From NCBI GenBank assembly GCA_000092065.1, contig CP000583.1: a stretch of 64,000 nucleotides of DNA. The stretch is one strand, 5' to 3'. The stretch is from Ostreococcus lucimarinus. Taxonomy: Eukaryota. The notes under the pieces are model-generated. The model made no database searches and was not told the origin of the DNA. It worked only from the letters and a program-made list of their open reading frames with translations. Below are positions 1 to 56,606 of this stretch, piece by piece. The first letter of the stretch is position 1; every line of letters begins with the position of its first letter. Position numbers and translations under genes: made by a program.

Positions 1-918
1 CCGGTTAAATTTCGCGCCGCCGCACAGTTCGGCGAACGCCTGCGCCTGTTTCGCCCTGCTCGACGCGCTCATGGCGCGCGTCGCGGCGCGGTGATCGAAG
101 ACGCGCGACTTCGATTCGTTCGAGCGTCGCCGCGGCGGCGGCGAGACGTCGCTTCGACGATCCGCGGCGCGATGTGGGCGACGCGGGGCGCGTCCGGCGC
201 GTCGCCAAAAATGTGTCATTCGCGCAATACCAGCTCGCGAGGCCGCGGCTGTCGCCGCGCGCCACCGAAAACGACGCGCGCGCGCGCGAAATAAACTCCG
301 CGAGGCGCTCGCGCGAATGCCGGCGACGTTCGCGCCGTCGAGCGGTGCGATCCCGCGCCGAACCATCGCGCGCAAACCATCGCACGTCGCCTCGAATGAT
401 GCAAAATCCATCATTCGGGCGCTTAAATCGCGTCCGAATTCGACGAAAAGTCGGGAAACGCTGGAGCACGAAAAGTTCTGACCGTCGGCGCGAAGAGCAT
501 AAAGAAACCAAGCGATACCGGGGGTTCCTGACGTCTTCCGACATCGGTACTTATCCGGCCCACGCGGTCTTAACTGAGAAGTTCCGATGGGTTTCTGTGA
601 TTTTCCGCGGGTGTGGTCGCTTGATAACACCATGATACGCACGACCCTTTAGCCGCGCACCACGGGGGATTACGACGCGAAAGTTACGGGTACTTTTGAC
701 ACCATTTACGTACTGTAACACTCGAACCCCCATCATTCACAAAATGCACCCCTCCATTTATCGCTCCCCCCGCGCCGATCCGGTGATGGCGCTCGCGCCC
801 CTCTTCGTGCGCGCGTTCGCCCCGCGCGCGCGGTCGACGCGCGACCGCGCGCCGCGCGCGCGTCGACGTCGCGCGCGGCGTCCGCGCACCGCCGCGCGCC
901 GCTCGCGCGCGATCGGAC

Positions 919-1818: not shown

Positions 1819-2018
1819 GTACGTTCGTAAGGCTCGATCGCAAGACTTTTCTTGGCGATGACGAAAAACGCATTGTGGAACACCGAGTCGCAAATCATGC
1901 GGACAAAACTGCGCCATCCATTTCCGTAGCCATTTCCGAGAGTTTTTGATTTACGATTCCCGCTTTTTGACGCGTTTCGAGACGACTGACGTGTTCGTAA
2001 CTTTTCACATTCATTCAG

Positions 2019-5300: not shown

Positions 5301-6060
5301 CGCCAAAGCGATAGCCGAGCGCGCGCGCGGTGGCGCCCAAGACAAACGTGTGCAAGTCACTCTTCCCTTTCTTTGCCGCAACCTTATCTTTCAACACTTC
5401 CATCACCATATTCACCGTCTGATTGAGCATGTCATCCTTCATGAACGTCGCCAAGAGCGCCAAACACTGCGCCGCGCGTTTACGCGTCCCCGACTTGCCG
5501 TGTTCCAAATGTTTCAACAACGTCTCTTGCAACTTTGCGCTGTGCTCTTCACTCAATCTCGCGTGCGGCATCTCACTGAGCACCGTCATCATGACGTGCA
5601 ACACATCCACGGCCTCCGCGGCGACGTTCATCTCATCCGCCGTCGCGCCCGCGCGCGCCGCCGTCGCCACGTGCGTCGCCAACGCCGGCGCGCACGTTCC
5701 CAAAACGCCCTCTCTCGCCCCCCCCTCGAACCCACCGATCTCCCGCACGATCGTCTTCAGGCACATGCACGCCGCGTCTCGCTTCGCCGCGTCCTTTTTC
5801 TCCCCCACGCTCGCGCACAGCGCTCTCGTCGTTCGCTCCGCCGTCGTCGTCTCGCCTCTTCGCGCGATCGCCGCCGCGCACTTCATCGCCAGTCCCGCCA
5901 CGTCCGCCGCCTGATCGAACACCGCCTTGAGCACCGCGTCCATCGCGCTCTCCTCCGTCTCGCGCGACGGGAACTTATCGAACGATTCTCGCGTCACCTC
6001 TCGCAGCAGGTCCGAGCACGCCATGTACCTGTAATCTGCCGCGTCGTCGTCGTCAGTCAT
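2356..6060 (-). CDS. CAND1: Cullin-associated NEDD8-dissociated protein 1 (CAND1/TIP120), a HEAT-repeat protein of about 1234 aa.
   Basis: Starts MTDDDDAADYRYMACSDLLREVTRESFDKF, matching the CAND1 N-terminal FRFMATNDLMTEL signature. It is HEAT-repeat-rich throughout with an internal acidic insert, and the length fits CAND1. The ATG (forward cat at 6058-6060) was verified; the track ORF continues upstream through Arg-rich junk. Confidence 0.85.
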   Translation of the reverse strand: MTDDDDAADYRYMACSDLLREVTRESFDKFPSRETEESAMDAVLKAVFDQAADVAGLAMKCAAAIARRGETTTAERTTRALCASVGEKKDAAKRDAACMCLKTIVREIGGFEGGAREGVLGTCAPALATHVATAARAGATADEMNVAAEAVDVLHVMMTVLSEMPHARLSEEHSAKLQETLLKHLEHGKSGTRKRAAQCLALLATFMKDDMLNQTVNMVMEVLKDKVAAKKGKSDLHTFVLGATARALGYRFGEYVNEVMPLLLRVCESSTDEYDEEVIVNIEGALQAIDNVVSSCPANVQGDEGTAARFACALKYISYDPNFDDDETEDMDTYEDEDEDVYSDDDEYNDDDDESWKVRRAAAKMLSALVGVASEPTLSEHYDDVMSKLLARTKDREPSVQLDVFSVIGDIVRVGAKFREHDPESKMSAKLRETTTDVIRIIIRESASKSPKTQVAAFALLSSLASVFPSILSDISDAEIRSSLMNIVQRCVGDKACGSSARIEALAFVCSVCKPNNLEILEPYVRDLLPQIFAACTDKYYKLVTEALRACAAVVSVLRREDTGAVSAENASQIKSLLDAVLTKLDASDEDQDVKEAAIHASAVILATLNDHINTQDQSRALGLLLERSRNETTRLPAVRAFAMIAGSSRPMDLSAVAAAMTSELTTFLRKANKSLRESALAALTALISSHRAALQDPDVVPIVVEASTLLSEEDLHLATLSVGLLTTIVAAASVFPKATQETAKSTMPLALKLTRSPLVQRQTLKSLQELYKNLILAGVVNFESLFEALSDTKDIQSVDSQFVAHSLAKCVAAACVAAAAIKQTMSTLLAKLQGVSGIEAVYTLLCIGEIGRLTDLSADKELETILFSAFDSYGDEVKGASALTLGRVAVGNRAKYLPLIVSKLESDSMEHQYSLLQALREVIVVGNLTEDEASKVLTILYGTASSEEEGVRNVVAECLGRLAASNPSKLIQDVHKRFAVSASPLEKATLISAIKFAVLASEKGELTKIRSELRLPEFMGAISDEDVNVRTSVIKTLTAVIHRESTLITPLLSDVLPKLLEQTAIATELVRVIDLGAFKHTVDDGLECRKSAFECVNTILDSCGGLVNARDVVVALASGLGDHYDIKMLAHAALRKLSAGVAPNSADAVLANLDAFCEPLVKTFTARVKSDAVQQEIDRNNDLLRSALRLVYSINEHAGSASVASWKTFNEESVVGGKENIAEMYARIEKENE

Positions 6061-6357
6061 CGCGCTCGACGCGTCGCGTCGCGCGTCGTCCCGCACCCTT
6101 ATCCGGCGACTGCATCTTCGACAGCGCCTGCGCGAGCGTGCCGCGCGCGGCGGCGGACGCCATCGCGTCGCGATGTCGCGACGCGATGGCGTCGTCGTCG
6201 TCGTCGCGGGCGTGGTGCGCGTGTGCGGACGGGATTTTGTGAATGTATCGAAAAACCAATCCTCTTTTCGGCCTCGCGGCGTCCCCATTCGCGCGCGCGC
6301 ATGACGCCCGCGTGCGCGTCCGTCGCGCGATCGCACGGCGCGCGGTGCACGGCGTCG

Positions 6358-15160: not shown

Positions 15161-15338
15161 ATGGTGCGAATCACGCTGGAGCTTTTGCGGCGGCGCGCCG
15201 AACACAACGACGGCGCGCTGTTCACGCTCGAGGAAGTGGCGCTGCATCAGCAAGGCATAGAGCGGTTAGAGGTGCTTCAAGAAGCGTGTCCGAAGCTGAA
15301 AATTGTGTTGCTCCACGATAACTTGATCCCAAAGATAG
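15161..15338 (+). CDS. LRRC6: LRRC6/TilB/DNAAF11 (axonemal dynein assembly factor), exon 1.
   Basis: [59 protein letters not shown] closely matches the LRRC6 N-terminus. The exon ends at AG|GTGCGG, and ATG was verified at 15161. Confidence 0.8.
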
Positions 15339-15405
15339 GTGCGGCGTTCTGGCGCTCGCGTGGTGCGCGCTTGTTGACTGACAGCGAGACGCCACGCTCT
15401 CATAG

Positions 15406-16322
15406 AAAACGTGCGCAAACTCAAGGCGATGGAGTACTTGAACCTGGCGATGAATAATGTGACGACCATAGAAAACTTGGAGAAATGCGAGTCGCTGGTC
15501 AAGCTTGATCTCACCATGAATTTCATCACGCTCAAAGGGTTGCTGAAACTGGACCGACTCGCGGTCAACCATAGTTTAAGGCAGCTGTTCTTGATGGGGA
15601 ATCCGTGCGCGGATTTCGAAGGATATCGCTCGTTTGTCATCGGAACGTTGCCGCAGCTCACCCACGTCGATGGCACGGACGTCACACACGTAGAGCGAAT
15701 AATCGCAAGGCAGCACTTGCGGCGCATCACTGAAGATTTGGAGAAGGCCGCTGCCGCCGAGACGGCGACGACGGTCAGCGTGGACGAAATCGCGTCAATA
15801 GAACCCGACGCACGTCCGTGGTGCGCGGCGACTCGCATTCTCGATAATGAAGTCAAAATGACCACATCGTCCTCAATGAAACAGCCGCAAAATCATTTCG
15901 ACGACGCCCGTGATGCATTCGATGTACTTCCAGACGACATCGCCGACGTCAAGCAGAAGAATCAAGGCGATTTCGATTTCAAGCTCACCGATTCTGAGGA
16001 TGAAACTTCGATAGAACTCGAGATTAAAGTCGGTACCATCATCGACACCTCACTCATCCACGTCGATATTCATCCAAAGTTGGTGCGCGTGAAAATCAAA
16101 GGCGAGTTGTTGCAGCTGAAGCTCTCGCACGAAGTGGCCACAGACGCGAGCGTCGCCGAACGCTCAAAAGCGACGGGCAAGCTTCTGATCACAATGCCTA
16201 AACTAAACTGGCATTTGAAACCTAAATCAGTCGTAAGGGGAGACCCAAAAATCCGAGATCATCACGCAAGAGTGACCTACCACCGCGCGGAGAACGACGA
16301 ACCGCCCGATGTGATTTGCTAA
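15406..16322 (+). CDS. LRRC6: LRRC6/TilB/DNAAF11, exon 2 (LRR repeats, LRRcap, CS/p23-like domain).
   Basis: Removing the 67-nt intron 15339-15405 (GTGCGG...TTGACTGAC...CTCATAG) gives ...[47 protein letters not shown]...LFLMGNPC, an uninterrupted LRRC6-type LRR array. The separate track ORF at 15411 starts at GTG and is in a different frame from exon 1. Confidence 0.8.
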
Positions 16323-17127: not shown

Positions 17128-18111
17128 CTACTCTGGATCCGGGAGTTCCGCTAGCAAGCTCAAGAGCATGGATCGCTCAGATTGAAACGACTCGTCTTCG
17201 CGCGTGGTTTGGAAATCTTCGAGGTAGGTGATGAGCTTGGCTTTGTTCTTGGACAAAATCATCGCCACCGACGCGGGTTTGTCGGGATTTGCGACAAACA
17301 CCTTGAAGATGTGAAACGCTTCAAACTGAATCGATTTCGATTCATCTCGCATCAAATTCATCATTAAGCACAGGTTTTCAACTTCCGCGACGTATTTCAG
17401 CATCACGGTCACGTTCGCGCTGTCGAGCAAGAGTTCGCCGAGCAGTTTGAGCGCCTGTCGGCGAGTGACGTAGTTACCCTTTTCCAAAAGATCCGTGTAC
17501 GCCTTGACGAACCTCTCGTAATTCGCGTTCAAGAACTCCGCCGCCACGTCTTTATGTCTCGTCAACGCCTCTCGAAACGTCGCCATCGCATCGCTCGCGA
17601 TTTCAAACGTTTCCAACTGCATGTACTCGAACATTTTCCAAAAGTTTTCCCCGTACAAAATCTTTCGCACCAGCGTCTCGTTCCTACACATATCCCTCAG
17701 CATCGCCCCGAACGTCAACGCCACGTCCGAGTTTTCGTACCCTCGCGCGATCGCCTCCAAAACCTCCGGGTTCTCGCTCAGATCCTCCACCACGACGTCG
17801 TGTCCCCGCACCGACGTGCGCACGATGCAATTAAAAACCGTCGCCGCGTCCTTCCTCGTCTCGAACGGCAGATGCGGCAGGTGCGAGACGATCTGCGCCA
17901 CCAGTCCGCACGCATTCGCCTTCACCACGAGCGTCTCGCACGCTTGCTGCGCCGACGCATCGCCGCTCAGCAACAGCGCTCGCATCTCTCCAAAGTACTT
18001 GCTCACGCTCTCCACATCCTTGGCGCTCGTGCGATCGACGCGCAGGCGCTCGAGGGCGGCGTGCGACTTCGTGACGAGCTCTTCGGGCGTGCGGACCTTT
18101 TTGCCGAACAT
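17128..18111 (-). CDS. CAB39: Mo25/CAB39 (calcium-binding protein 39, STRAD/LKB1 scaffold).
   Basis: MFGKKVRTPEELVTKSHAALERL...LVAQIVSHLPHLPFETRKD...YENSDVALTFGAMLRDMCRNE... matches Mo25 along the full 327 aa. ATG verified. Confidence 0.85.
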   Translation of the reverse strand: MFGKKVRTPEELVTKSHAALERLRVDRTSAKDVESVSKYFGEMRALLLSGDASAQQACETLVVKANACGLVAQIVSHLPHLPFETRKDAATVFNCIVRTSVRGHDVVVEDLSENPEVLEAIARGYENSDVALTFGAMLRDMCRNETLVRKILYGENFWKMFEYMQLETFEIASDAMATFREALTRHKDVAAEFLNANYERFVKAYTDLLEKGNYVTRRQALKLLGELLLDSANVTVMLKYVAEVENLCLMMNLMRDESKSIQFEAFHIFKVFVANPDKPASVAMILSKNKAKLITYLEDFQTTREDESFQSERSMLLSLLAELPDPE

Positions 18112-21679: not shown

Positions 21680-22357
21680 AAGATATAGCCAACGTAGTAA
21701 TACATCGCCGGCGACGGATGTCGATCCGGACGACGTCGTCATCGCCGTCGCGTCGCGCGCCCGCGCGACCGTCGCGCCCCGTGTCTCTCACCTCACATCG
21801 TTCAAACCTAAATCCTTCCACGTCTCGTCTTCGTTTCCTCCCGTCCCGCCGTCCTCTGTCGCGAAAACCGAACCGTCGTCGTCGTCGTCTCGTCAGTCGT
21901 TCGCCTCGAACGCGCGCGCGTCGTCCGCGCGCCTCGTCCGCCCCACTCCACGCACCGTTCCCCTCCTCCGCGTCGTCCACCGGCGCCGCCATCTCCGCGT
22001 TCAACCGCACCGCTGCGCGCGCCGTCGTCCATCGTTCGCCTCGTCAGTCGCCGTCGCCTTTTTCCGCGTCGCCGTCGTCTCGCGTTTTTCACGCGCGCCC
22101 GCGCGTTTCGTCCCCGGTCCCGACGCACCGTCGTCCGGCAGCGCGTCGTTCGCCCACGCGTCGTCGACGACGTCGATCGCGCGCCAGTCCGCGCGCACCG
22201 CGCCGTCCTCCATCGTCGTCGTCTGTCGCGCGTGCGACGCGATTCGTTGCGACGCCGCGCGCGTGTTTTGAAAAACGCGCGAAACATACCACCGAGGGCG
22301 GACCCGAGATAGCACTATAACGGATCCGAATACCACTAAAGCGGCCCCGAACCGGAA

Positions 22358-22366: not shown

Positions 22367-22465
22367 TATCGCCCCTTTAGAGAGTACCTACACACATGAC
22401 GAGTCATGAACCGTGGATATATACGTATTTTACACCGAACCACTTAAAGCGGACCCAAAAAATGC

Positions 22466-22516
22466 GGTCGGTCGGTCGGTCGGTCGGTCGGTCGGTCGGT
22501 CGGTCGGTCGGTCGGT
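22466..22516. repeat. (TCGG)n tetranucleotide microsatellite, about 13 units.
   Basis: Direct reading shows gcggtcggtcggtcgg...tcggtcgccgcg. Confidence 0.95.
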
Positions 22517-22563
22517 CGGTCGGTCGGTCGCCGCGTGGGGGCCTCGCGCGCGATGATTATCGT

Positions 22564-40727: not shown

Positions 40728-42614
40728 ATGGACTCCAAGTGGTTCACGCGCGATGTCGCGGAGCTGAGGACCTGGCGAATCATCGGCGCGTGCGCGTGGT
40801 CCACGCTCGCTATTTTCGTCGCCGTACGTCGCGCTCGCGTCGATTTGATTTCGATTTCGCCAACGTCCGCATTTGATTCTCGACGAAGGCGACGACTGAC
40901 GGAGCGCCATCGCGACGCGCGCGCACAGGCATACGCATACTTCACGTGTGTACACATTCTTGGTGGTGACTTCCCGCACTGGTCGCGCGTGGCCGTGGCG
41001 TTGACGTACGCGGCGACGCAACTGCCAGCGAGCGCGGCGACGGCGATGTGCGCGAGAGCGAGCACGGCTGATTTCGTGCCGAACGGCGAAAGGGACGCGT
41101 GTGGAATCGTGCGAGGGGAGAGAATCGGTGAACGGTTCGCAACGGCGATGATGCGGGATGGGATGACGATCGGGGCGTTGGGCGGCGCGTTTGCATGCTC
41201 GGGGAGTTTGGCGTGCTCGCTCGCAGCGAGGACGACGCCGACGCGGGGCTTGGTGGGGATGATGACGGTGAACGCGTCCGACGCTACGTTCGCAGCGCAA
41301 TTTGGCTGTGTGTTGGGGGTGATGACAGTGGTGAACTTTTGGTTCAACGATGGTTTGGTGGTGAAGTTTTCATCGGTGCAGCGACCGCGCGGGTTGCGGT
41401 TGAAACGCGCATTTGCGCCGTGCGCTCTAAGTGGATTGAAGCGTTCCCTTTATGCGTGCGTGGTGCATATTTTGGTGGTAATTGCGAGTCGATTCCTCGT
41501 CCAGCTCAGCGCGAAATCGTCTCGAGGTTTGTTCTTGGGGTCGATGTCGTGTTGGGGCGCTGGGGCGCTCGCGAGCGCTTCGTGGGCGCTCGCAATTTTC
41601 TGCGCCGAGATCGTGCACACCGAGCGCTATGAGTTCAGACCGCAAAGTTTGACGCAAGGTCCGAAAGTTGCGAGCGAACCTCTGATGGCGGCTTTGCATT
41701 ATTTCGAAGTTCCGTTCGTGCAGCACTTGGCGTTTGCAGACTTGTGCAACGTCGCCGAGAGCGGTGGACGCGGACGGCGCCAGCTCATCTACGGCGATAC
41801 CCCCGATGCGGCGTGGTCTGTGGTGATATCGATCGCTCTCGCGCCGTTGGCATCGATTTCGCGTTCGGTGAACAAGGCGATGGACCGCACTATGTTGGCG
41901 GCGTTGCGAGACACGGATGCGGATGCGGCGCAAAGGATTAGTGAAAAGTACGCGCAAATGAATACGCCAAAGCCCAAATTTCGACACGAGAGCGCGCAGA
42001 CGCAACAAGCGTGGAATGCGTTGCGTCAAAGCGAGGTGCTCTCGACCGATGTTGCGGCGCGTGAGTTGTGCACGGTGGTCAAGGCGTACGGGCAATTGGC
42101 GATTTGGGGCGCGCGCGCTTCGTCTTCGCTCGCCGTCGCCGCGAAAAAGGAAGATGTTCGCGGAAACGCGCGTTCGATCAATCCGTCGCTCAGTGCGATT
42201 GTGCGAACGTTACTTACGGCACAATTAGCATGTCGGACGATCATCGAGCAAGGTTCTCCTCCCGTGCGCGCCTCCAGTGGGTTCACCTCTAGCGATTTGG
42301 CGTCGACGTCAAAGGCGAATTCCATCGTCGCGAAGCGAAACGAGATCATCAACAACGTCTTGTACGTTTTAGGAATCACCGCCACCAATAGAAATGATGC
42401 AAACGGTGCTGTGACGCCGGCTTTCACGCCCGCAGTGGAGACTGCGAAGAGAATATCGGACACCGTGGAGATCGCTTTGGGCGCGCTCGTCGTCGAGTAC
42501 GGCGACGACGTCAAAGTCATGCTTCGCGAATCCGAACAATTCGGGCCGCCAGAGTTCGGCACACCGAACGAGCTGTTTGATGCCTTAGAAACAATCGCCA
42601 CCGACTTGGCGTGA
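40728..42614 (+). CDS. Multi-pass membrane protein (about six TM in the first 310 aa) with a roughly 300-aa soluble C-terminal domain; function unassigned, with a speculative NDC1-nucleoporin-like topology.
   Basis: ATG verified at 40728. The hydrophobic segments are WRIIGACAWSTLAIFVAV, VAVALTYAATQLPASAATAM, MTIGALGGAFACSGSLACSLAA, FAAQFGCVLGVMTVVNFWF, LYACVVHILVVIASRFLV and GLFLGSMSCWGAGALASASWALAIFCAEIV. Confidence 0.5.
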   Translation: MDSKWFTRDVAELRTWRIIGACAWSTLAIFVAVRRARVDLISISPTSAFDSRRRRRLTERHRDARAQAYAYFTCVHILGGDFPHWSRVAVALTYAATQLPASAATAMCARASTADFVPNGERDACGIVRGERIGERFATAMMRDGMTIGALGGAFACSGSLACSLAARTTPTRGLVGMMTVNASDATFAAQFGCVLGVMTVVNFWFNDGLVVKFSSVQRPRGLRLKRAFAPCALSGLKRSLYACVVHILVVIASRFLVQLSAKSSRGLFLGSMSCWGAGALASASWALAIFCAEIVHTERYEFRPQSLTQGPKVASEPLMAALHYFEVPFVQHLAFADLCNVAESGGRGRRQLIYGDTPDAAWSVVISIALAPLASISRSVNKAMDRTMLAALRDTDADAAQRISEKYAQMNTPKPKFRHESAQTQQAWNALRQSEVLSTDVAARELCTVVKAYGQLAIWGARASSSLAVAAKKEDVRGNARSINPSLSAIVRTLLTAQLACRTIIEQGSPPVRASSGFTSSDLASTSKANSIVAKRNEIINNVLYVLGITATNRNDANGAVTPAFTPAVETAKRISDTVEIALGALVVEYGDDVKVMLRESEQFGPPEFGTPNELFDALETIATDLA

Positions 42615-49307: not shown

Positions 49308-50882
49308 TTACAGCTCCGCGGACGGCGATGCGAGGTCGAAAGGGGGAGAAGACGGCCGCGTTGACGCGTTGGAATCGCGCGCGGCGTCGTCGACGGTGGC
49401 GTGGGATCGATCGGCGTCGGCGGGGAGGAGGGAGAAGTCGGCGGCGCGCGAACGCCGAGACGCCGACGAAAGGAGCGGCGGCGCGGAGACGCACGGGATG
49501 ATGATCTTGCACGCGGCGACGAGCACGAGGAAGGCGGTGAGAGGTGACCACGAACGATCGGTTGGAATGACGGCGCCGGTGGTGTCCGTGCGCGTGGGCG
49601 CACCGATGTGTAGGGCGCGGACGACGCCGGCGGAGACGTAGGCGGAGACGAGCGCGCCGACGTCGCTGGCGAAAATCAGCGCCGCGAAACCGACGGCTTC
49701 GAGGTTTTGCGGAGCCATGATCGCGCCTAATGTGACGATTGGCATGTAACCCACGCGCAAGCCAAAAATTGCGAGCGCGTTGACGATAGATAACGCCGCC
49801 ACGGCGCCGGTTGCGGGCGGCCGCCACACGATGAAGAGTCGACAGAGACCCAGCGCCGCGTCTACGACGGCGCCGAAGACGAACATCATCCACGTGGGCG
49901 ACGAGACGAGAAGCGCACGAATCTTCGTCAACGTTCCGGCGTCGTTTTCACCCACAGAACTACCAGACGCGCTTGCGTCTCCGAACGCCCAACCGAACGC
50001 CGCCGGCGCGGCGAGCGCGCCGAGCGACGTAAAGAACGCCACCAAACCAAACTCATAATCCTTCATCCTATCGCTGAACACGGCGTACGTATACGACGCG
50101 AATGTATCCAACGCCGTCGGTGCGATGCGGTATAAAAACACCAACGCGGCGCACCGTAAAAAATCAACCTCGGCGAGCGGCGCGTACGCCTCCTTCGCTC
50201 GCGCCGTCCACGACGCGCACGACCGCGACTCCATTTCACGCTCATCTTCTCTTCCCGAATCGACATCTCGCGATATATCACTCTCATCCACGCTCACTAA
50301 CGCCACAGCGATCGCGACGAGCATCCAAATCCCGCTCGCCGCCGCCGCCGTCCGCGCGCTCGCCGCCGCCAGTCCTCCCGCGCTCGCTAAATCCCCCACC
50401 ACGCTCCCCGCCGTCCTCGCCGCCATCGCGCACGCCTGCGCCATCACCACCTCATCCCTCGACCTTCCCGCTTCCCCGCCGAACCTCTCGACGACGTATC
50501 CATCCAACGACGCGTACGCGTGCGCCGCGCCCGCGCTCGCCAGCGTCCCGAACCCGTACGTCTGCGCCGTCGTCCGCGCCGCGCTCGACCCGAGCGCGCC
50601 CGCCAGCGCGACCGCGCATCCGAGCGCGACGTGCGCCGCTCGCGTGCCCCCCCTCGCGCGCGATCGGTCGCTCACCGACGCGTACAGCGGCTTTAACGTC
50701 GCCACCGCGAACACAAAGGCGTAAAAGCGATTCGCGCCCTCGGGCGTTTCGTCCCACGCGAGCGCGCGATTCCGCACCAGCGCGAGCGGCGTCGTCGACG
50801 ACTCCACGGCGAGGGTCAGGAAAAAGTAGCACGCCAGCGCCGGGGCGTGACGCGCGAGCTCGGCGCGCGTCGGGCGCGTCAT
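49308..50882 (-). CDS. Polytopic membrane transporter (MFS-like, possibly folate-biopterin-transporter-like); the family is uncertain.
   Basis: About 12 hydrophobic segments. Candidate starts are ATG 50978, 50894 and 50882; the two lower ones avoid overlapping the UBL exon on the other strand. The track start at 50993 is GTG. Confidence 0.5.
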   Translation of the reverse strand: MTRPTRAELARHAPALACYFFLTLAVESSTTPLALVRNRALAWDETPEGANRFYAFVFAVATLKPLYASVSDRSRARGGTRAAHVALGCAVALAGALGSSAARTTAQTYGFGTLASAGAAHAYASLDGYVVERFGGEAGRSRDEVVMAQACAMAARTAGSVVGDLASAGGLAAASARTAAAASGIWMLVAIAVALVSVDESDISRDVDSGREDEREMESRSCASWTARAKEAYAPLAEVDFLRCAALVFLYRIAPTALDTFASYTYAVFSDRMKDYEFGLVAFFTSLGALAAPAAFGWAFGDASASGSSVGENDAGTLTKIRALLVSSPTWMMFVFGAVVDAALGLCRLFIVWRPPATGAVAALSIVNALAIFGLRVGYMPIVTLGAIMAPQNLEAVGFAALIFASDVGALVSAYVSAGVVRALHIGAPTRTDTTGAVIPTDRSWSPLTAFLVLVAACKIIIPCVSAPPLLSSASRRSRAADFSLLPADADRSHATVDDAARDSNASTRPSSPPFDLASPSAEL

Positions 50883-50906
50883 ACTCTGACGCATCGGCGC
50901 CGCGTC

Positions 50907-51014
50907 ATGGCGACGGCGTCCATCGACGCCCTCGGGCCGAGCGAGCGCGACAGCGTGCGCGTGAAGATACGCGTGCATCCGAGCGGCGAACACTTCGTGC
51001 GCGTGCCGAAGACG
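50907..51014 (+). CDS. Ubiquitin-like/ZZ-finger protein, exon 1 (first half of the ubiquitin-like domain).
   Basis: MATASIDALGPSERDSVRVKIRVHPSGEHFVRVPKT supplies ubiquitin-fold strands beta1-beta2. The exon ends at ACG|GTGCGC. ATG verified at 50907. Confidence 0.5.
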
Positions 51015-51190
51015 GTGCGCGAGACGACGCGAACGCGACGACGCGAAGCGAAGCGAGGGGACATCTTAAAATAACCGACGCGAGCGCGCGGCGGCGCGGT
51101 GACGATCGCGGCGGCGAGGCGGAGGCGCGAAAACGGCGCGCGGCGAGGCGTTCTCGAGGACTGACCGAGCGACGACGGCGACGATCGCAG

Positions 51191-53194
51191 GCGCTGATGC
51201 CGGCGGTGAAGCGAATCGTGGAGGGCGTCTCGGGCGTGCCGGCGAACGCGCAGCGGTTGCTGTGTCGAGGACGCGTGCTCGCGGACGAAGCGTCGATGGA
51301 GAGCGCGCGAGTGGAGGATGGAGACACGCTGCTGCTGGTGACGCGAGCGCCGGAGACGGAGGCGAATCCGAATTTGGCGAGGGATCCGCACGCGCCGGAA
51401 AACGCGGAAGCTCGCGGAAACGGACGAGGCGAGGGGACGATCGGGGACTTGTCGCAGATGATAACGTCGTTACTCACGGCGAATCCAGCGATGTTAGGGG
51501 CGGTAGGACCGGCGGGGGGGGCGGTGACCGTGGAGTTTAGCATCGGCGGACCGCCGATGGGGGGCGGGGGGGCGCGAGCTCCGGCGGCGGGTCAACGCCG
51601 CGAAGAGCGGGCGGCGGGCCGGGGTGGGCGTGGACAACCCACGAACGCCACGGCGACGACGGCGGTGCAGCAAAACACGCCCGAAGAGACCTTGCGTAGA
51701 TATCTGCAGAACGTTTTACGGTTGTTGCGCGGTTTACAAGTGCGCTCGACGCCGTTGTCCACGCCGGGTGATGGAAACTCGGTCGCGAGCGAGGACGCAT
51801 CTCGGACGATAGAGCAGCGTCCCATACATTTTGGCGTGCAATGCGATGCGTGTGAGGTTATTCCCGTCCGAGGGACGCGGTACAAGAGCGTGGCTCACGA
51901 CGATTACGATCTGTGCGAGCGTTGTTTCTTCGCTGGTCGAGGCGCCGCGTGCGGACCGTACGCGAAGCTCGACTTGCCGTTGCCGGCTGGTTTACCCCCA
52001 GTCGTTCAAAACGACGATGAAACGGACATGAATCAAGGCACAACACGTGAACAACGCAGTGAAGCCGATGTGGATACTCTCGGTGGCATGTTGAGCACGG
52101 CGGGAGAGATCGCTCGTCAAGCCGCACCGCTCATCGATGTCGTCGCGGCGAGATTCGCTCGAGACAGTAGGCAAAACACAGTCGAGACGCAGGCCGCGAA
52201 CTTGCAAGTCGCCAGTCTAATGCATTCAGTCGGCGCGCTTTGGTGTGAGCTCGCGCGATGCATGGCTGTCGTGCCACCGCCTCCAGGCGTCATGACACCA
52301 CAGGGTGCCGCGATCGCCGGCGACGACATCAACAACGCCCAAAGTTTTTTTAGCTATCCGCAGGTATCTTACATCGCTAATTCAGGTGAGTTTCCGCACA
52401 CTCGACCGCCTGGGATGCCATTGCATACCCAAGACGGCCTTTTTGTGCAAGGAAACCCTCAAGCTCAGGCTGTGAGACCTGTAGGCGTCATGCATGTCAT
52501 GCACCAGGTGCATGGATTGCAGCAAGGCTTGGAAGGTTTGCCGCCAGAGCTTCGCGAACTGCTGATGCGTCAGGCGGCGCAAGCTACACCAGCGCCAGGT
52601 ACTAATCCTGCCGCCTCTGCCGCTACGACTGAGGCGCAGCAACCGCCGCCGCCTTCTCAAATGGTCAACCCGCACGGTCGTCGGCAAGCGCAAGCGCAGT
52701 CTTCACAGAGAGCGTTGAGTCGATTTTTGGGATCTGTACTTAGGGCAATTCCGAGTCCGAGCTTCATGACGTCGCAAGCTGATCACACCATCGACGCGAC
52801 GACACAAAGCGGCGGTATTCAAATCCCTACCGTCCCCGCGCATCGGGATTCAACGACTCTCGCGCATGATTTGAACTCTGCGGTGACGGGCGCGGCGGGT
52901 CAACGCCCTCCAGTGGCGCCGAGTCAACCCGTCGGCACGGTCCCAACGAGCGCGACGAGCGCAAACGACAGCATTTCTCGCTCTGGACAAAACGAAACGC
53001 CGAATCGCGCTCGAACGCGTGGTGATTCCAAGGAGGAGGACGCCAATGGGCGCGCGGCAAAGGCGTCCAACACTGGGAACGGCATGTCTCCCGCCGCGAG
53101 CGCCGCTCACCTCGCGAGAGATCAAGCGACGAAATCGAACTTAGGAGCGAGCACTTCGCACGTCACTCGAAATGAGGAAGACGACAAAGAATAA
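51191..53194 (+). CDS. Ubiquitin-like/ZZ-finger protein, exon 2 (second half of the UBL, ZZ-type zinc finger, long Gln/Pro/Ala-rich disordered region).
   Basis: After the 176-nt intron 51015-51190 (branch-like GACTGAC, acceptor GATCGCAG) the frame continues ALMPAVKRIVEGVSGVPANAQRLLCRGRVLADEASMESARVEDGDTLLLV, completing a ubiquitin-like fold. The ZZ finger is HFGVQCDACEVIPVRGTRYKSVAHDDYDLCERCFFAG. Confidence 0.65.
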   Translation, partial: ALMPAVKRIVEGVSGVPANAQRLLCRGRVLADEASMESARVEDGDTLLLVTRAPETEANPNLARDPHAPENAEARGNGRGEGTIGDLSQMITSLLTANPAMLGAVGPAGGAVTVEFSIGGPPMGGGGARAPAAGQRREERAAGRGGRGQPTNATATTAVQQNTPEETLRRYLQNVLRLLRGLQVRSTPLSTPGDGNSVASEDASRTIEQRPIHFGVQCDACEVIPVRGTRYKSVAHDDYDLCERCFFAGRGAACGPYAKLDLPLPAGLPPVVQNDDETDMNQGTTREQRSEADVDTLGGMLSTAGEIARQAAPLIDVVAARFARDSRQNTVETQAANLQVASLMHSVGALWCELARCMAVVPPPPGVMTPQGAAIAGDDINNAQSFFSYPQVSYIANSGEFPHTRPPGMPLHTQDGLFVQGNPQAQAVRPVGVMHVMHQVHGLQQGLEGLPPELRELLMRQAAQATPAPGTNPAASAATTEAQQPPPPSQMVNPHGRRQAQAQSSQRALSRFLGSVLRAIPSPSFMTSQADHTIDATTQSGGIQIPTVPAHRDSTTLAHDLNSAVTGAAGQRPPVAPSQPVGTVPTSATSANDSISRSGQNETPNRARTRGDSKEEDANGRAAKASNTGNGMSPAASAAHLARDQATKSNLGASTSHVTRNEEDDKE

Positions 53195-53260
53195 TTGATT
53201 GATGATGAGTGCACCAGTGATTGCGACGCCGATTGATTTGTAAAACAAATTTGCGAACAT

Positions 53261-54373
53261 TTACATGGATATTCTCCCGCGCCGTCCCCTTGTGCGCAGC
53301 ATCGCGAGCGCTAACGCTCCGACGGCCGCGCCTCCGAGATGACCAGCGTGCGCCACACCAGACCCACGCGAATCTTGAATGCCCACGATATCTCTCATGA
53401 GGAATAAACCTCCTAGTAGTATGCTAGGCACTGGTACGATCGCGTAAAGGTAAATCGTCCGCAGTGGGTAAAGCAACACCTCGAACGCCACGATCGCGTT
53501 CACCGCCCCGCTCGCTCCGAGAGCGGCGGGAGTGAAGTAATACCCTCGCTTCGCACCGCTATCTTCTACGAACCTAGCGACGTACGCGTCGAGACGGTCG
53601 AAGAAGTTCCCTCGGCCCTCCTTGTACCGCTCCATTCGTTTGCGTCGTTGCCTCGCGCACCACGCCACGTGCGCGGCCGAAGCCCCGACGCCCCCGACGC
53701 AATACAGCGTGAGCAAATACCGACCTCCGAATCGCTCGCACACGCTTCGCCCGAAAAAGTACAGCGCGATCATGTTCATTCCCAGATGCGTCAAATCAAA
53801 ATGAGAAAACGCCGAAGTCAACATCGTGTGCCATCGCCCGTGCGCGAGCGCCTCCTCGCTCACCATGAAATTCTTCCGCATGAACCGCCCGTCCTCGGTC
53901 GTGGCCCAGGCGTAATACACCGCCCCATTCAGTCCTATCAGCGCCCACAGCGCGCGATCGCCGTCCGCGGATCCACCGAGCGCGTCCCAACCGCGTCCCG
54001 GCGGCGGCGCGCCGCGGTACGCGCGTCTCGTCCCGTCCCACCCCCCGGTCCTCCCCGCCTCCCTTCGCGCGCCTTCGAACAGCGACGACGACGCGTGGGA
54101 CGCGCGCGCGGACGTCGCCGTCGTCGCCGTCGCCATCGCGCGTCCCGCGGCCGTCGTCGCGCGCGGCCGTCGTCCAGTCATCGTCTCCGTCTCAACCACC
54201 CTCGCGCCCGCGCGCGCGCCCGCGCGCGCCACCTCGCGCGCGACGCGCGTCGCCGTCGACGCGCGCATGATTTTAGACGACCGCGCGCTCGAGCGAGCGA
54301 ACGCGCGCGCGCGCGAGCGACGGACGCGTCGTGAAGTCGCACTACAAATCATCCGCGTCGAGCTAAAATACAT
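53261..54373 (-). CDS. Rhomboid intramembrane serine protease (mitochondrial PARL-like, long presequence-like N-terminus).
   Basis: LTHLGMNMIALYFFG, GASGAVNAIVAFE (catalytic Ser) and HAGHLGGAAVG (catalytic His) are present. ATG verified at 54373. Confidence 0.8.
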   Translation of the reverse strand: MYFSSTRMICSATSRRVRRSRARAFARSSARSSKIMRASTATRVAREVARAGARAGARVVETETMTGRRPRATTAAGRAMATATTATSARASHASSSLFEGARREAGRTGGWDGTRRAYRGAPPPGRGWDALGGSADGDRALWALIGLNGAVYYAWATTEDGRFMRKNFMVSEEALAHGRWHTMLTSAFSHFDLTHLGMNMIALYFFGRSVCERFGGRYLLTLYCVGGVGASAAHVAWCARQRRKRMERYKEGRGNFFDRLDAYVARFVEDSGAKRGYYFTPAALGASGAVNAIVAFEVLLYPLRTIYLYAIVPVPSILLGGLFLMRDIVGIQDSRGSGVAHAGHLGGAAVGALALAMLRTRGRRGRISM

Positions 54374-54424
54374 CCCAGCCTCCCTCGCCTCGCCTCGCGC
54401 GCCTCGCGCGCCGCGCCGCGCGCG

Positions 54425-54472
54425 CTACAAGAACTTCTTCCTCGGTCGTCCGTACCGATCGTCGTTCGCGTC
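54425..54472 (-). CDS. Small single-TM protein, exon 2 (DANDDRYGRPRKKFL-stop).
   Basis: It follows the putative 160-nt intron 54473-54632 (branch-like GACTGAC, acceptor GATCGCAG). Unspliced read-through gives only an Arg-rich junk tail. Confidence 0.35.
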   Translation of the reverse strand, partial: DANDDRYGRPRKKFL

Positions 54473-54632
54473 CTGCGATCGTCGTCGTCGTCGTCAGTCG
54501 TCGGTCGATTCGATTTAGGTTCGTTCGATCCCTCGCCCGTTCGCCGCGTCGCGCCCGCGCGCGCGCGTCGCCCCCGCGCGCGCGCCGCCCGCGCGCGCGC
54601 ACGCCTCGCGTCGCCTCGCGTCGCGCACGCAC

Positions 54633-54806
54633 GAAATCCCTGACGGCGCCGCGATAGATGAGCGCCGGGACGAAGACGCCGAAGACGGCGAAGAGCCCGA
54701 TCGTTCGCGGCGTCAGGCGGAACGCGCGCTCGATCGTCTCGCGCGCCGCGCCGTTGGCCTCGATGAAGGCGTTGGGCTTGAGCCCGGTGGGGTCGGCGCC
54801 GGCCAT
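54633..54806 (-). CDS. Small single-TM protein (about 73 aa once spliced), exon 1; it resembles small mitochondrial respiratory-complex subunits, but that is unassigned.
   Basis: MAGADPTGLKPNAFIEANGAARETIERAFRLTPRTIGLFAVFGVFVPALIYRGAVRDF. The exon ends at TTC|GTGCGT. ATG verified at 54806. Confidence 0.35.
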
Positions 54807-55262
54807 CGCGCGCGACGGCGACGCGACGACGCGCGGGGGTGTGCGAGCGCCAGAGCGGGACGCGGCGGGGACGACGGGACGACGGCGCCCGCGGACGCGA
54901 TCGCGCCCGCGCGTCGGCGACGAGACGACGCGCGCGGACGTCGGCGACGACGCGACGCGCGCGGACCCGCGCGCGGGCGCGACGCGACGACGCGGGGGGG
55001 AGAGGATTCGGCGTCGGGATTCGGGACGGGGACGTTCGCGTCGCCGAACGGCGTCGACGCGCCGGGCGACGGCGACGCGGGCGCGGAGAATAAGAGTTTG
55101 AGCTCGCTCGGGGTGTCGCCGGGAGATCTGGCGCGGCGCGCGGTGAAGGCGCGCGGCGAGGGGGACGGCGGCGCGCGAGGGACGGCGACGACGCGACGAG
55201 ACGAGACGAGGGCGCGCGAACGCGAGCGCGAACGCGAGCGCGACGAGGGAGACGCGAGCGCG

Positions 55263-56396
55263 ATGGAGTCGGACGCGACGAGGACGCGCGACGAGGACGC
55301 GGGCGCGATGCCGAGGACGATGCGAGAGGCGCTCGGGGAGTGGCGGGGCGAGTTGGAGGCGGCGGAGGCGGCGTTTTTGGCGATTCACGCGTTGATGCTG
55401 GATTCGGGGGCGAAGACCGCGGGAGAGATTGAATTGCGCGATGGACTCGCGCGGCGAGGGTGTTACTCGGCGCGCTATGCCGTCGGAGCGCGCGGGAGAG
55501 AGGATACGGTGACGTGCTCGGTGCGCGCGCAGCCGGTGGAGTCGCGACTGTCGGTGTTCGGGACGCTGGAATCGGACGCGGGATCGGCTGGCGTCGCGTA
55601 CGCGACGCTGATTCAAGCCAGCGATTACGTGGACGAGGGGGGGTCGATCACGCCCGAGGGTTGTCGCGCGCTGTGGGCGAAAGTGAAAGAAGCGATGACT
55701 ACGAAGCTCTTCGAAGCGGCCGAGGCGCAGTTGGCGGGGATCCTTTCGCCCGGCACGCTCATGTCTCTTCCCACGGACGTCAAACGTAGAATCGCCGAAA
55801 ATCTAGACGCGTACGGGTTGGCTTACTGCGCGTGCACGTGCAAAGAACTCCGCGCGGTGTGCTCGGACGACGAGCTTTGGACGCGGCTTTTACAGACGGA
55901 TTTCGACGTGCCTCCGATGCCAACTGGAATTTCTTCTCGCTCGTTGTACAACAAGCACGCGATGCGTAGATCGGCCGAGCGAGAGGAACGATTACGGATG
56001 GAGTCTTACCATCCGATGCCTGGTCGTTTGCCGCGTCATGGCTTCATGCCCGATCCCGATCGCGACATTTACGCCGGAATTCCCGGCCACGTGCCCGGCA
56101 TCATCGGCGGCGATTACGATTTGTGGCCCGGCGGTCTCAACCCGAATCCGCCGCCGCGCCCGATCCCTGGTTACGGTAGAGGAGGATTAGGTGGACCCGG
56201 ACGACCGAGAGGAGGCTGGCCCGGCGGAGGGCCTCCTTTCCCGCCGCAACCGGGCGGGTTGCCTTACAATCCCGATCCCGACGCCGATTTGCGAAACCCT
56301 CCCGACATTCCCGGGCGAGGCCGAGGCGGATTCCCGAGCATGCCTCCCAATCCGGGATGGGACGGACGACCACGACCGCCGCCTGATTTCTTTTAG
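55263..56396 (+). CDS. F-box-like protein with a Pro/Gly/Arg-rich (RGG/PPG) C-terminus.
   Basis: RRIAENLDAYGLAYCACTCKELRAVCSDDELWTRLLQTDF is F-box-like. The track start at 55098 is TTG; first ATG at 55263 (MESDATR...). Confidence 0.5.
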   Translation: MESDATRTRDEDAGAMPRTMREALGEWRGELEAAEAAFLAIHALMLDSGAKTAGEIELRDGLARRGCYSARYAVGARGREDTVTCSVRAQPVESRLSVFGTLESDAGSAGVAYATLIQASDYVDEGGSITPEGCRALWAKVKEAMTTKLFEAAEAQLAGILSPGTLMSLPTDVKRRIAENLDAYGLAYCACTCKELRAVCSDDELWTRLLQTDFDVPPMPTGISSRSLYNKHAMRRSAEREERLRMESYHPMPGRLPRHGFMPDPDRDIYAGIPGHVPGIIGGDYDLWPGGLNPNPPPRPIPGYGRGGLGGPGRPRGGWPGGGPPFPPQPGGLPYNPDPDADLRNPPDIPGRGRGGFPSMPPNPGWDGRPRPPPDFF

Positions 56397-56520
56397 CTCC
56401 CTTTTAGCGGTCAGATTTAGCGAAACGAGATCGATTTGAATGTATAAAACAGTTGCCGCTTTTGCTTGCATTTAAAGCCGCGTTCGTGTCGTGGTATCGA
56501 ATTCGAATTTTTAGTCGGGA

Positions 56521-56606
56521 CGCTATGGTTCTACTTGTTTTTCTTTTTTCGTAAAGCATCGGCCGCTATGGTTCTAGTTGTTTTTCTTTTTTCGTAAAGC
56601 ATCGGC
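56521..56606. repeat. Tandem duplication, 2 x 43 bp with one mismatch (CGCTATGGTTCTACTTGTTTTTCTTTTTTCGTAAAGCATCGGC), in the convergent 3' intergenic spacer.
   Basis: Direct reading. It lies between the stops of the F-box-like gene (56396) and the minus-strand coiled-coil gene (56574), overlapping the latter's stop region. Confidence 0.85.

What the first reader, a model, noticed from the sequence alone, without database searches (positions are those of the whole stretch)
15339..15405. Clear 67-nt spliceosomal intron in LRRC6, and a shared GACTGAC branch-like motif
Exon 1 (frame 2) and the downstream ORF (frame 0) join exactly, through a phase-1 codon GAA, only if 15339-15405 (GTGCGG...CTCATAG) is removed. 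This restores a contiguous LRRC6 leucine-rich-repeat register (LHDNLIPKIENVRKLKAMEYLNLAMNNV). All four candidate introns in the window (1819-2018, 15339-15405, 51015-51190, 54473-54632) carry (T/C)GACTGAC 15-32 nt upstream of the AG. Their donors are GTGCG(G/T/C) or GTACGT. Together these define a simple, self-consistent intron grammar for this genome that could be used to re-scan other genes.
Basis: seen in the sequence. Interest (0 to 1): 0.5.

Follow-up and report, generated by a model that had tools for sequence, protein, structure and literature searches.

The report
Known Ostreococcus intron and branch-site motif
The 67-base stretch is a genuine, ordinary spliceosomal intron in the dynein-assembly gene DNAAF11/LRRC6 of the tiny green alga Ostreococcus lucimarinus; both the intron and its GTGCG…GACTGAC…YAG signals were already annotated and published in 2007-2008.

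Summary
Removing 15339-15405 (GTGCGG…TGACTGAC…CATAG, phase 1) joins 15161-15338 to 15406-16322. The result is a 364-aa LRR + CS-domain protein.

The window is Ostreococcus lucimarinus CCE9901. The spliced product is letter-for-letter GenBank XP_001416645.1, so the intron is already annotated.

Nine distinct Ostreococcus-like orthologues, including the annotated O. tauri gene, carry an intron at the same codon and phase. All have a GTGCGN donor, GACTGAC or GACTAAC, and YAG. Length (60-100 nt) and the rest of the sequence diverge.

The "grammar" is published for this genome (Irimia & Roy 2008). Among EST-confirmed introns outside chromosome 2, 87% have ACTGAC and 66.5% have GACTGACG. The 5' consensus is GTGCGTG.

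Eight of the nine GACTGAC copies in the window lie in these introns.

Two are absent from the GenBank models. One is exon 1 plus the intron of a ubiquitin-like/ZZ gene. The other is an in-frame 105-nt intron in an Ndc1-like gene.

Caveats:
- A loose motif scan alone is at chance level.
- One intron has GGACTGAC, not (T/C)GACTGAC.
- No spliced transcript was found for the DNAAF11 intron itself.

Novelty: none. Interest is low.

The parts
15161..15338 (+). DNAAF11/LRRC6 exon 1 (59 codons plus the first base of codon 60)
   Evidence: Starts at ATG 15161. The peptide aligns 100% to 63% with orthologous loci L001-L017. It is part of the exact match to XP_001416645.1.
15339..15405 (+). 67-nt U2-type GT-AG intron, phase 1
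   Evidence: Its removal gives the 364-aa protein identical to XP_001416645.1. An intron of 60-100 nt sits at the same codon and phase in nine distinct orthologue sequence types.
15339..15344 (+). 5' splice site GTGCGG
   Evidence: GTGCGN is invariant in all orthologous introns. It matches the published atypical consensus GTGCGTG.
15375..15382 (+). Branch-site motif TGACTGAC; the inferred branch adenosine is 15381, 24 nt from the intron end
   Evidence: GACTGAC or GACTAAC is present in every orthologous intron, while the surrounding sequence diverges. ACTGAC is in 87% of EST-confirmed O. lucimarinus introns outside chromosome 2. The choice of A15381 as the branch nucleotide is an inference from the CTRAY rule and was not mapped.
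15403..15405 (+). 3' splice site TAG
   Evidence: It is the first YAG at a workable distance after the branch motif. Orthologues have TAG or CAG.
15406..16322 (+). DNAAF11/LRRC6 exon 2, through the stop codon
   Evidence: ORF shown. Pfam CS_DNAAF11_C matches residues 236-325.
1819..2018 (+). 200-nt intron of a conserved unnamed gene (GTACGT...CGACTGACG...TTCAG, phase 0)
   Evidence: The spliced model starting at Met117 is exactly XP_001416641.1. The 40-nt exon-exon junction is present in Logan contig L090. The junction aligns without a gap to the Micromonas commoda protein.
6036..6096 (-).
   Evidence: The spliced 1248-aa model is exactly XP_001416932.1.
21856..21955 (-).
   Evidence: The 69-aa three-exon model is exactly XP_001416938.1. 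The junction is present in Logan contigs L086 and L087. Pfam Apc13p E 5.5e-4.
22013..22128 (-).
   Evidence: Same evidence as for intron 2.
40824..40928 (+). Probable 105-nt in-frame, stop-free intron in an Ndc1-like nucleoporin gene (GTACGT...CGACTGACG...CACAG, phase 0); not in the GenBank model
   Evidence: Signals shown. GenBank XP_001416658.1 is the unspliced 628-aa ORF. A 96%-identical relative (P0292) is frameshifted and stops inside this segment. Other relatives lose similarity right after exon 1 and regain it at exon 2. The only indel among population variants lies in this segment.
50907..51014 (+). Unannotated exon 1 of the ubiquitin-like/ZZ gene (36 codons)
   Evidence: The peptide is conserved at 82% and 73% in L088 and L089, directly before a GTGCG donor. 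With this exon the Pfam ubiquitin match covers profile positions 1-71 of 72. GenBank XP_001416661.1 starts at Met39.
51015..51190 (+). 176-nt intron of the ubiquitin-like/ZZ gene (GTGCGC...GGACTGACC...CGCAG, phase 0)
   Evidence: Relatives have an intron at the same position: 189 nt in L088 and 74 nt in L089, each with GTGCG, GACTGACG and YAG. No spliced transcript was found, and contig L085 retains the intron.
54473..54632 (-). 160-nt intron of a 73-aa membrane protein gene (GTGCGTG...CGACTGACG...CGCAG, phase 0)
   Evidence: The spliced model is exactly XP_001416949.1. Logan contig L085 lacks exactly these 160 nt. Introns of 190 nt (L088) and 206 nt (L089) are conserved at the same position.

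Best explanation
15339-15405 is a constitutive U2-type (GT-AG) spliceosomal intron in the Ostreococcus lucimarinus orthologue of DNAAF11 (LRRC6/tilB). It belongs to the published class of O. lucimarinus introns outside chromosome 2, which have unusually rigid signals.

Inferred mechanism, from the established splicing pathway:
1. U1 and later U6 snRNA read the donor GTGCGG.
2. SF1/BBP and then U2 snRNA read GACTGAC. This is the CTRAY branch site, in which G pairs as a G-U wobble where yeast has A. A15381 is bulged out as the branch nucleophile.
3. The first usable YAG, 24 nt downstream, is the acceptor. There is no polypyrimidine tract.

Splicing rebuilds the split codon G|AA and joins the N-terminal LRR cap to the rest of the LRR and CS domains.

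Shown here: the frame and homology restoration, identity to the deposited gene model, and conservation of position and signals across lineages. Inferred: the snRNA contacts, the identity of the branch nucleotide, and actual splicing of this particular intron in vivo.
For: - The spliced product is 364 aa with one continuous LRR_9 match plus CS_DNAAF11_C.
- It is letter-for-letter XP_001416645.1 / ABO94938.1 / UniProt A4RUC3 of O. lucimarinus CCE9901. The window is that genome, because the neighbouring Mo25 ORF is exactly XP_001416937.1 on a 982,987-nt record.
- The O. tauri orthologue is also 364 aa (69% identity, 99% coverage). Its annotated gene has a 72-nt intron at the same codon and phase: GTGCGA...TGACTAAC...CGTAG.
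- Eight more metagenomic Ostreococcus-like sequence types have an intron there, 60-100 nt long. All have GTGCGN, GACTGAC or GACTAAC, and YAG. The rest of the intron and its length diverge, and the lengths are not multiples of three.
- The junction aligns without a gap to algal and animal DNAAF11.
- The same signals occur in seven other introns of the window. Five of them match GenBank proteins exactly, and four of those five have exon-exon junctions in transcript-like contigs.
- Published data for this genome: 87.2% ACTGAC, 66.5% GACTGACG, 5' consensus GTGCGTG in 319 EST-confirmed introns outside chromosome 2.
Against: - No RNA-level evidence exists for this particular intron. No contig encoding the exact spliced product is on record, and its junction 40-mer is in none of the fetched loci.
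- The host organism has no cilia, so expression of a dynein-assembly gene cannot be taken for granted.
- The GenBank model is a 2007 prediction, not proof.
- The motif word itself is not enriched window-wide, and a motif-only scan is at chance level.
- A second in-frame donor (GTGCGC at 15363) exists inside the intron.
Confidence: 0.95

Rival explanations
1. The intron is real but uses the internal donor GTGCGC at 15363. That would give a 43-nt intron and insert 8 residues (GAAFWRSR) after Ile59.
For: GTGCGC at 15363 fits the donor pattern, and 24 extra nt keep phase 1.
Against: No homologue has an insertion at this point. The O. tauri and GenBank models use the upstream donor. The branch motif would lie only 18 nt from that donor. 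The internal GTGCG is not conserved in orthologous introns.
Confidence: 0.02
2. There is no splicing. The locus is a decaying gene or two separate ORFs, as prokaryote-style gene callers report it (98 aa plus about 298 aa). This would be a leftover of lost flagella.
For: Metagenome annotations split it into two ORFs. More than 100 cluster members are exon-2-only 'protein TilB' fragments. Ostreococcus lacks cilia. No spliced transcript was found.
Against: Both exons are conserved at the protein level (57-100% identity) across nine lineages with no frame disruption, whereas the interval between them diverges freely in sequence and length but keeps its splice signals. Ostreococcus is known to retain I1/f dynein heavy chains and the assembly factor WDR92, so a working DNAAF11 is plausible.
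Confidence: 0.02
3. The introns are copies of a mobile introner-like element, as in Micromonas, and GACTGAC is part of the element rather than an independent splicing signal.
For: Some intron pairs share about 25 nt around the motif and the 3' end (UBL against the 73-aa gene: local score 50).
Against: The similarity is limited to the motif plus (GAC)n low complexity. The DNAAF11 intron shows nothing beyond the motif itself: z is at most 2.6 against six introns and 4.5 against CAND1, which shares TGACTGAC. The introns are at orthologous positions in lineages with only 57-69% protein identity, so they are old rather than recently inserted.
Confidence: 0.01
4. GACTGAC in these intervals is a compositional coincidence of a GC-rich, (CGA)n-rich genome and not the branch site.
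For: There are 9 copies against 8.1 expected in the window. The grammar scan is at chance level. The depletion in coding sense strand is not significant (0 against 1.8).
Against: Eight of nine copies fall in 985 nt of intron, always on the sense strand and always 17-37 nt before the acceptor. The motif is retained, with only the R position changing, in every orthologous intron while flanks diverge. It is found in 87% of 319 EST-confirmed introns.
Confidence: 0.02

Closest known systems
O. lucimarinus introns outside chromosome 2 (Irimia & Roy 2008, PLoS Genet 4:e1000148, 'The Peculiar Case of Ostreococcus')
   Same: Same genome. Donor GTGCG(N), where the published consensus is GTGCGTG. Branch motif ACTGAC extended to GACTGAC(G). 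Short distance from branch to acceptor. Located in the intron-poor part of the genome.
   Different: Nothing essential differs. This intron has GACTGACA rather than GACTGACG and GTGCGGC rather than GTGCGTG, which is within the published variation.
Annotated intron of the O. tauri DNAAF11 orthologue (CAID01000003.2, protein P0003, 364 aa)
   Same: Same codon, same phase, GTGCG donor, TGACTRAC, TAG acceptor, and syntenic neighbours La/RRM, GatC-tRNA_bind, Gpr1/Fun34/YaaH, Mo25 and DUF3181.
   Different: 72 nt instead of 67. GACTAAC instead of GACTGAC. The intron body cannot be aligned.
Hemiascomycete yeast introns (GTATGT ... TACTAAC ... YAG)
   Same: An intron-poor genome with near-invariant donor and branch-site words, a branch close to the 3' splice site, and little or no polypyrimidine tract. 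This is the convergence described in PMC2483917.
   Different: The words differ: GTGCGT against GTATGT, and GACTGAC against TACTAAC. The leading G would not pair with the canonical U2 GUAGUA box (my own reasoning, not tested).
Introns of the low-GC half of Ostreococcus chromosome 2
   Same: Same organism and a similar small size (40-65 nt there).
   Different: Those introns have weak branch signals (4.6% share any one hexamer) and a typical GTRNGT donor. The intron here has the strong signals.
Micromonas introner elements
   Same: Spliceosomal introns in a related alga of the Mamiellales.
   Different: Introner elements are repeated sequence families. The introns here share only the splice signals and lie at conserved orthologous positions.

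Membership tests
U2-type GT-AG spliceosomal intron | GT at the 5' end and AG at the 3' end | tested here: met
   GTGCGG ... CATAG. Also true in all nine orthologue sequence types.
U2-type GT-AG spliceosomal intron | Branch-site CTRAY with an adenosine roughly 15-40 nt upstream of the acceptor | tested here: met
   GACTGAC at 15376-15382, with the A 24 nt from the intron end. GACTRAC is conserved in the orthologues. The branch nucleotide itself was not mapped.
U2-type GT-AG spliceosomal intron | Removal restores a continuous reading frame that matches homologues without a gap | tested here: met
   The product is identical to XP_001416645.1.
U2-type GT-AG spliceosomal intron | The interval evolves as non-coding sequence (length not constrained to multiples of three, sequence diverges) while the flanking exons are conserved | tested here: met
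   Lengths are 60, 64, 66, 67, 70, 72, 92 and 100 nt. The bodies cannot be aligned between clades.
U2-type GT-AG spliceosomal intron | Spliced RNA observed | tested here: inconclusive
   No contig encodes the exact spliced product, and the junction 40-mer is absent from the fetched loci. The same test was positive for four other introns of the window. Raw RNA-seq reads cannot be searched with these tools.
O. lucimarinus intron class outside chromosome 2 (Irimia & Roy 2008) | Contains ACTGAC (87% of the class); extended form GACTGACG (66.5%) | tested here: met
   It has GACTGAC followed by A, so the 8-mer is matched at 7 of 8 positions. Six of the eight window introns have the full GACTGACG.
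O. lucimarinus intron class outside chromosome 2 (Irimia & Roy 2008) | Strong atypical donor GTGCGTG | tested here: met
   GTGCGGC matches the first five positions. Across the window the donors are GTGCG in six introns and GTACG in two.
O. lucimarinus intron class outside chromosome 2 (Irimia & Roy 2008) | Located outside the atypical part of chromosome 2 | tested here: inconclusive
   The record is 982,987 nt long. The region is syntenic with O. tauri chromosome 3 contig CAID01000003.2, and GC is about 0.54-0.71. The chromosome number of the O. lucimarinus record was not shown by any tool.
DNAAF11 / LRRC6 / tilB protein family (host gene) | N-terminal LRR (LRR_9-type) followed by the DNAAF11-type CS domain | tested here: met
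   Pfam LRR_9 E 1.2e-10 and CS_DNAAF11_C E 9.2e-27. Identity to animal DNAAF11 is 39-47% over about 90% of the length.
U12-type (minor) intron | Donor [AG]TATCCTT and branch TCCTTAAC | tested here: not met
   The sequence reads GTGCGGCG and GACTGAC.
Introner elements (Micromonas-type repeated introns) | Extended sequence similarity among many introns of one genome | tested here: not met
   Pairwise local alignments of the eight introns share only the motif and low-complexity runs of about 25 nt.

The most novel reading that the evidence does not exclude
Two readings remain open.

1. The rigid heptamer GACTGAC, and especially its leading G, would mismatch the canonical U2 GUAGUA box. It is kept in orthologous introns of lineages whose proteins are only about 45-70% identical. 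This could reflect a lineage-specific change in branch-site recognition: a co-evolved U2 snRNA or SF1 in the Ostreococcus lineage.

2. Applying the same grammar genome-wide would reveal a set of in-frame, stop-free introns that current gene models translate as protein. The Ndc1-like case at 40824-40928 is one example.

The probability and interest given here refer to reading 1. Reading 2 is more likely than that (I judge the Ndc1-like and UBL introns about 70-85% likely to be real), but it would only be an annotation fix.
Probability: 0.15. Interest if true: 0.3.

Novelty: already known. Interest (0 to 1): 0.08.

Why it matters
It does not change knowledge. The intron has been in GenBank since 2007 and the signal grammar in the literature since 2008.

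Its practical value is as a sanity check. A sequence-only reader recovered the true splicing code of an intron-poor genome from four examples.

The same code, combined with frame or homology evidence, exposes two gaps in the deposited annotation:
- a missing first exon that completes a ubiquitin-like domain;
- an in-frame intron translated as 35 extra residues in an Ndc1-like nucleoporin.

It also shows why prokaryote-style gene calling on marine metagenomes systematically truncates these algal genes.

Tried and rejected
- Exact look-up of the spliced DNAAF11 protein in assemblies, to find a cDNA-like contig: nothing on record. The same was true for CAND1.
- Junction 40-mers for DNAAF11, CAND1, Ndc1-like and UBL were absent from all fetched loci.
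- Motif-only statistics: GACTGAC is not enriched in the window, GACTAAC is absent, and the loose grammar scan is at chance level. I therefore dropped "the motif alone finds introns".
- Depletion of GACTGAC from exons as a sign of selection against cryptic branch sites: not significant against a codon-shuffle null (0 against 1.8).
- Introner-element hypothesis: rejected.
- My first models for three genes were not in the collection. One (g1) only had the wrong start codon. The other two differ from GenBank because GenBank lacks the intron.
- The Rfam scan found no snRNA in the window, only a 5S rRNA, so the U2 branch-pairing idea could not be tested.
- Apparent gene-free gaps that might hide extra exons (6.2-8.2 kb and 49.9-50.9 kb) turned out to be ordinary genes, rhodanese/UPF0176 and BT1.
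- I did not build a complete intron census of the window. Introns lacking the motif could have been missed.

Full report
**What is at the coordinates**

Positions 15339-15405 read GTGCGGCGTTCTGGCGCTCGCGTGGTGCGCGCTTGTTGACTGACAGCGAGACGCCACGCTCTCATAG, 67 nt.

The ORF that opens at ATG 15161 ends its conserved part at ...AAG ATA G (15338). The downstream ORF resumes at AA AAC GTG (15406). Deleting the 67 nt rebuilds the codon G|AA in phase 1. This yields a single 1095-nt reading frame of 364 aa. If the interval is kept, the exon-1 frame stops at 15457 after 98 aa.

The spliced protein has one uninterrupted Pfam LRR_9 match (residues 1-165 to profile 1-163/175) and a CS_DNAAF11_C domain (E 9e-27). 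Its junction sequence ...NLIPKI|ENVRKLK... aligns without a gap to O. tauri, Micromonas-like, Mantoniella, Edaphochlamys and fish DNAAF11.

**Where the window comes from**

The gene order around the locus is La/RRM, GatC-tRNA_bind, LRR/CS, Gpr1-Fun34-YaaH, Mo25, DUF3181. This is the same as on Ostreococcus tauri contig CAID01000003.2.

The Mo25 ORF at 17131-18111(-) is letter-for-letter XP_001416937.1 of Ostreococcus lucimarinus CCE9901, on a 982,987-nt record. The window is therefore O. lucimarinus CCE9901 or an indistinguishable strain.

**The intron is already annotated**

The 364-aa spliced product is exactly XP_001416645.1 / ABO94938.1 / UniProt A4RUC3, named [quoted passage not shown]. 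The deposited gene model must therefore use these same splice sites.

**Comparative evidence**

The O. tauri orthologue is also 364 aa, with 69% identity and 99% coverage. Its annotated gene contains a 72-nt intron at the identical codon and phase: AATAG|GTGCGAGACG...GGTTGACTAACTGATGAACCGTAG|AAAAC.

A scan of metagenome contigs returned 79 related loci. Sixteen of them, falling into eight further sequence types, are Ostreococcus-like, with 57-100% protein identity and GC 0.52-0.58. All sixteen have an interruption at the same place, of 60, 64, 66, 67, 70, 92 or 100 nt. Every one starts GTGCGN, contains GACTGAC or GACTAAC, and ends CAG or TAG. The rest of the interval cannot be aligned between clades.

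Nearly all more distant homologues, GC 0.63-0.70 and presumably Micromonas and others, read straight through with a gap of 0 or 3 nt. A few loci do show gaps, but where checked (L065) they lie at other positions. This is the pattern expected of an old intron specific to the Ostreococcus lineage. It is not the pattern of coding sequence, a frameshift site or an assembly error.

**The other three candidates**

- **1819-2018.** The spliced model starting at Met117 is exactly XP_001416641.1. A 1293-nt Logan contig (L090, SRR17229574) contains the exact 40-nt exon-exon junction. The junction aligns without a gap to the Micromonas commoda protein.
- **54473-54632(-).** The 73-aa spliced product is exactly XP_001416949.1. 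Logan contig L085 (SRR28326253) lacks exactly these 160 nt. Two related lineages have introns of 190 and 206 nt at the same position, with GTGCG or GTACG and GACTGAC.
- **51015-51190.** GenBank does not have this intron. XP_001416661.1 is the 665-aa ORF starting at Met39.
  - Even so, a 36-codon exon 1 (50907-51014, MATASIDALGPSERDSVRVKIRVHPSGEHFVRVPKT) is conserved at 82% and 73% in L088 and L089.
  - There it is followed directly by GTGCGCG or GTGCGTG, then (C/G)GACTGACG, then CAG or TAG.
  - Only with this exon does the Pfam ubiquitin match cover profile positions 1-71 of 72.
  - Against it, contig L085 retains the intron. That contig runs antisense to this gene, so the retention is weak evidence.

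One stated detail fails. This last intron has GGACTGAC, not (T/C)GACTGAC.

**Re-scanning the window with the same signals**

The window contains nine GACTGAC copies on both strands.

- 6096..6036(-) in CAND1. The spliced 1248-aa model is XP_001416932.1.
- 22128..22013(-) and 21955..21856(-) in a three-exon APC13 gene. The 69-aa model is XP_001416938.1. Both junctions are present in Logan contigs L086 and L087.
- 40824-40928(+) in an Ndc1-like nucleoporin gene.

These rest.

The Ndc1-like intron is 105 nt, in frame and free of stop codons. GenBank XP_001416658.1 simply translates it. Several observations suggest it is really an intron:

- A 96%-identical relative (P0292) is frameshifted and terminated inside this segment.
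- More distant relatives lose similarity right after exon 1 (...FVA|VR...) and regain it at exon 2.
- A 38%-identical homologue lacks the 35 residues.
- The only indel among population variants of the ORF lies in this segment.

Only the ninth copy (62333, +) has no intron context.

**Signal table for the eight introns**

- Donors: GTGCG in six, GTACG in two.
- Branch motif: GACTGAC in all eight, followed by G in six.
- Distance from branch A to the intron end: 17-37 nt.
- Acceptors: CAG in seven, TAG in one.
- Lengths: 61-200 nt.
- Pyrimidine content between branch and acceptor: 0.30-0.50 in seven of eight, so there is no polypyrimidine tract.

**Is it more than chance?**

The word GACTGAC is not enriched in the window (9 against 8.1 expected). 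A loose scan for GTRCG ... ACTRAC ... first YAG gives 13 sites against 11.5 +/- 3.5 in shuffles.

What is non-random is the location. Eight of nine copies sit in 985 nt of intron, on the sense strand, at a fixed distance from the acceptor. The 47 kb of coding sense strand has none. A codon-shuffle null expects only 1.8 copies there, so "avoidance in exons" is not demonstrated.

**Comparison with what is known**

Irimia & Roy 2008 (PMC2483917) devote a section to this genome. They examined 319 EST-confirmed O. lucimarinus introns outside chromosome 2. Of these, 87.2% contain ACTGAC and 66.5% contain GACTGACG. The 5' splice site is strong (4.8 bits) with the atypical consensus GTGCGTG. Chromosome-2 introns have weak signals and GTRNGT.

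The introns are not an introner-like repeat family. Pairwise alignments share only the motif and (GAC)n runs. The intron is not U12-type by sequence.

**Mechanism**

By the established pathway, GTGCGG is read by U1 and U6. GACTGAC is read by SF1 and then U2, with A15381 bulged as the nucleophile. The G/A alternation seen between orthologues sits at the CTRAY "R" position, where G-U or A-U pairing with U2 is possible. The first suitably spaced YAG is then used as the acceptor. These steps are inferred, not shown here.

The conserved leading G would not pair with a canonical U2 GUAGUA box. This is my own reasoning. Whether it reflects a changed U2 or SF1 could not be tested, because the window contains no snRNA gene.

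**Remaining weakness**

I found no transcript-level evidence for the DNAAF11 intron itself. Ostreococcus has no cilia, yet it is known to keep I1/f inner-arm dynein heavy chains and the assembly factor WDR92 (PMC6727741). A conserved DNAAF11 fits that known oddity, but it may be weakly expressed.

**Verdict**

Both the intron and the motif are already known. The only small additions are two probable corrections to the 2007 GenBank models: exon 1 plus the intron of the ubiquitin-like/ZZ gene, and the in-frame intron of the Ndc1-like gene.

Noticed in passing
window 40824-40928 (+): Probable 105-nt intron (GTACGT...CGACTGACG...CACAG) that is in frame and has no stop codon. GenBank XP_001416658.1 (628 aa, Ndc1-like nucleoporin) translates it as 35 extra residues. 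A close relative is frameshifted inside it.
   Followed up: partly
window 50907-51190 (+): GenBank XP_001416661.1 (ubiquitin-like/ZZ protein, 665 aa) starts at Met39 and lacks a conserved 36-codon first exon and the 176-nt intron. With them, the ubiquitin domain is complete.
   Followed up: yes
window 6036-6096 (-), 21856-21955 (-), 22013-22128 (-): Three further annotated introns, one in CAND1 and two in APC13, carry the same GTGCG...GACTGACG...CAG signals.
   Followed up: yes
window 15161-16322 (+): A conserved orthologue of the axonemal dynein assembly factor DNAAF11/tilB is present in an alga without cilia or basal bodies. This fits the known retention of I1/f dynein heavy chains and WDR92 in Ostreococcus (PMC6727741). 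Its function there is unknown.
   Followed up: partly
window 507-624 (-): A 5S rRNA gene (Rfam RF00001, 71 bits), the only Rfam family hit in the window. No tRNA genes were found.
   Followed up: no
L081-L084; protein clusters of P0001, P0177 and P0340: Prokaryote-style gene calling on marine metagenomes splits or truncates these algal genes at their introns. DNAAF11, for example, is reported as 98-aa plus about 298-aa ORFs, and more than 100 cluster members are exon-2-only 'protein TilB' fragments. This species' exact Mo25 protein occurs in 1198 blocks of the collection, so it is very abundant in public marine data.
   Followed up: no
L085 (Logan SRR28326253) against window 50271-56492: One 5.9-kb contig has the 73-aa gene's intron precisely removed but keeps the intron of the neighbouring opposite-strand UBL gene. 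It also has one copy of a segment of about 66 nt that occurs twice, 149 nt apart, in the window (around 54873-55087). It is probably a read-through or chimeric transcript assembly; the library type was not checked.
   Followed up: partly
all eight introns (table): There is no polypyrimidine tract between branch site and acceptor. The pyrimidine fraction is 0.30-0.50 in seven of eight introns, and T is often below 10%. The exception is the 200-nt intron at 1819-2018, which is also much less GC-rich (0.47).
   Followed up: no
coding regions of the window (38 gene models, 47 kb): The pentamer CTGAC is about two-fold depleted on both the sense strand (14 against 29.9) and the antisense strand (19 against 31.5), relative to codon-shuffled controls. 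This is unexplained. The heptamer GACTGAC is too rare to test.
   Followed up: partly
window 22465-22530: A perfect (CGGT)16.5 microsatellite lies in the intergenic region between APC13 and the mitochondrial-carrier gene. There is also a 43-nt unit repeated twice at 97% identity at 56521-56606.
   Followed up: no
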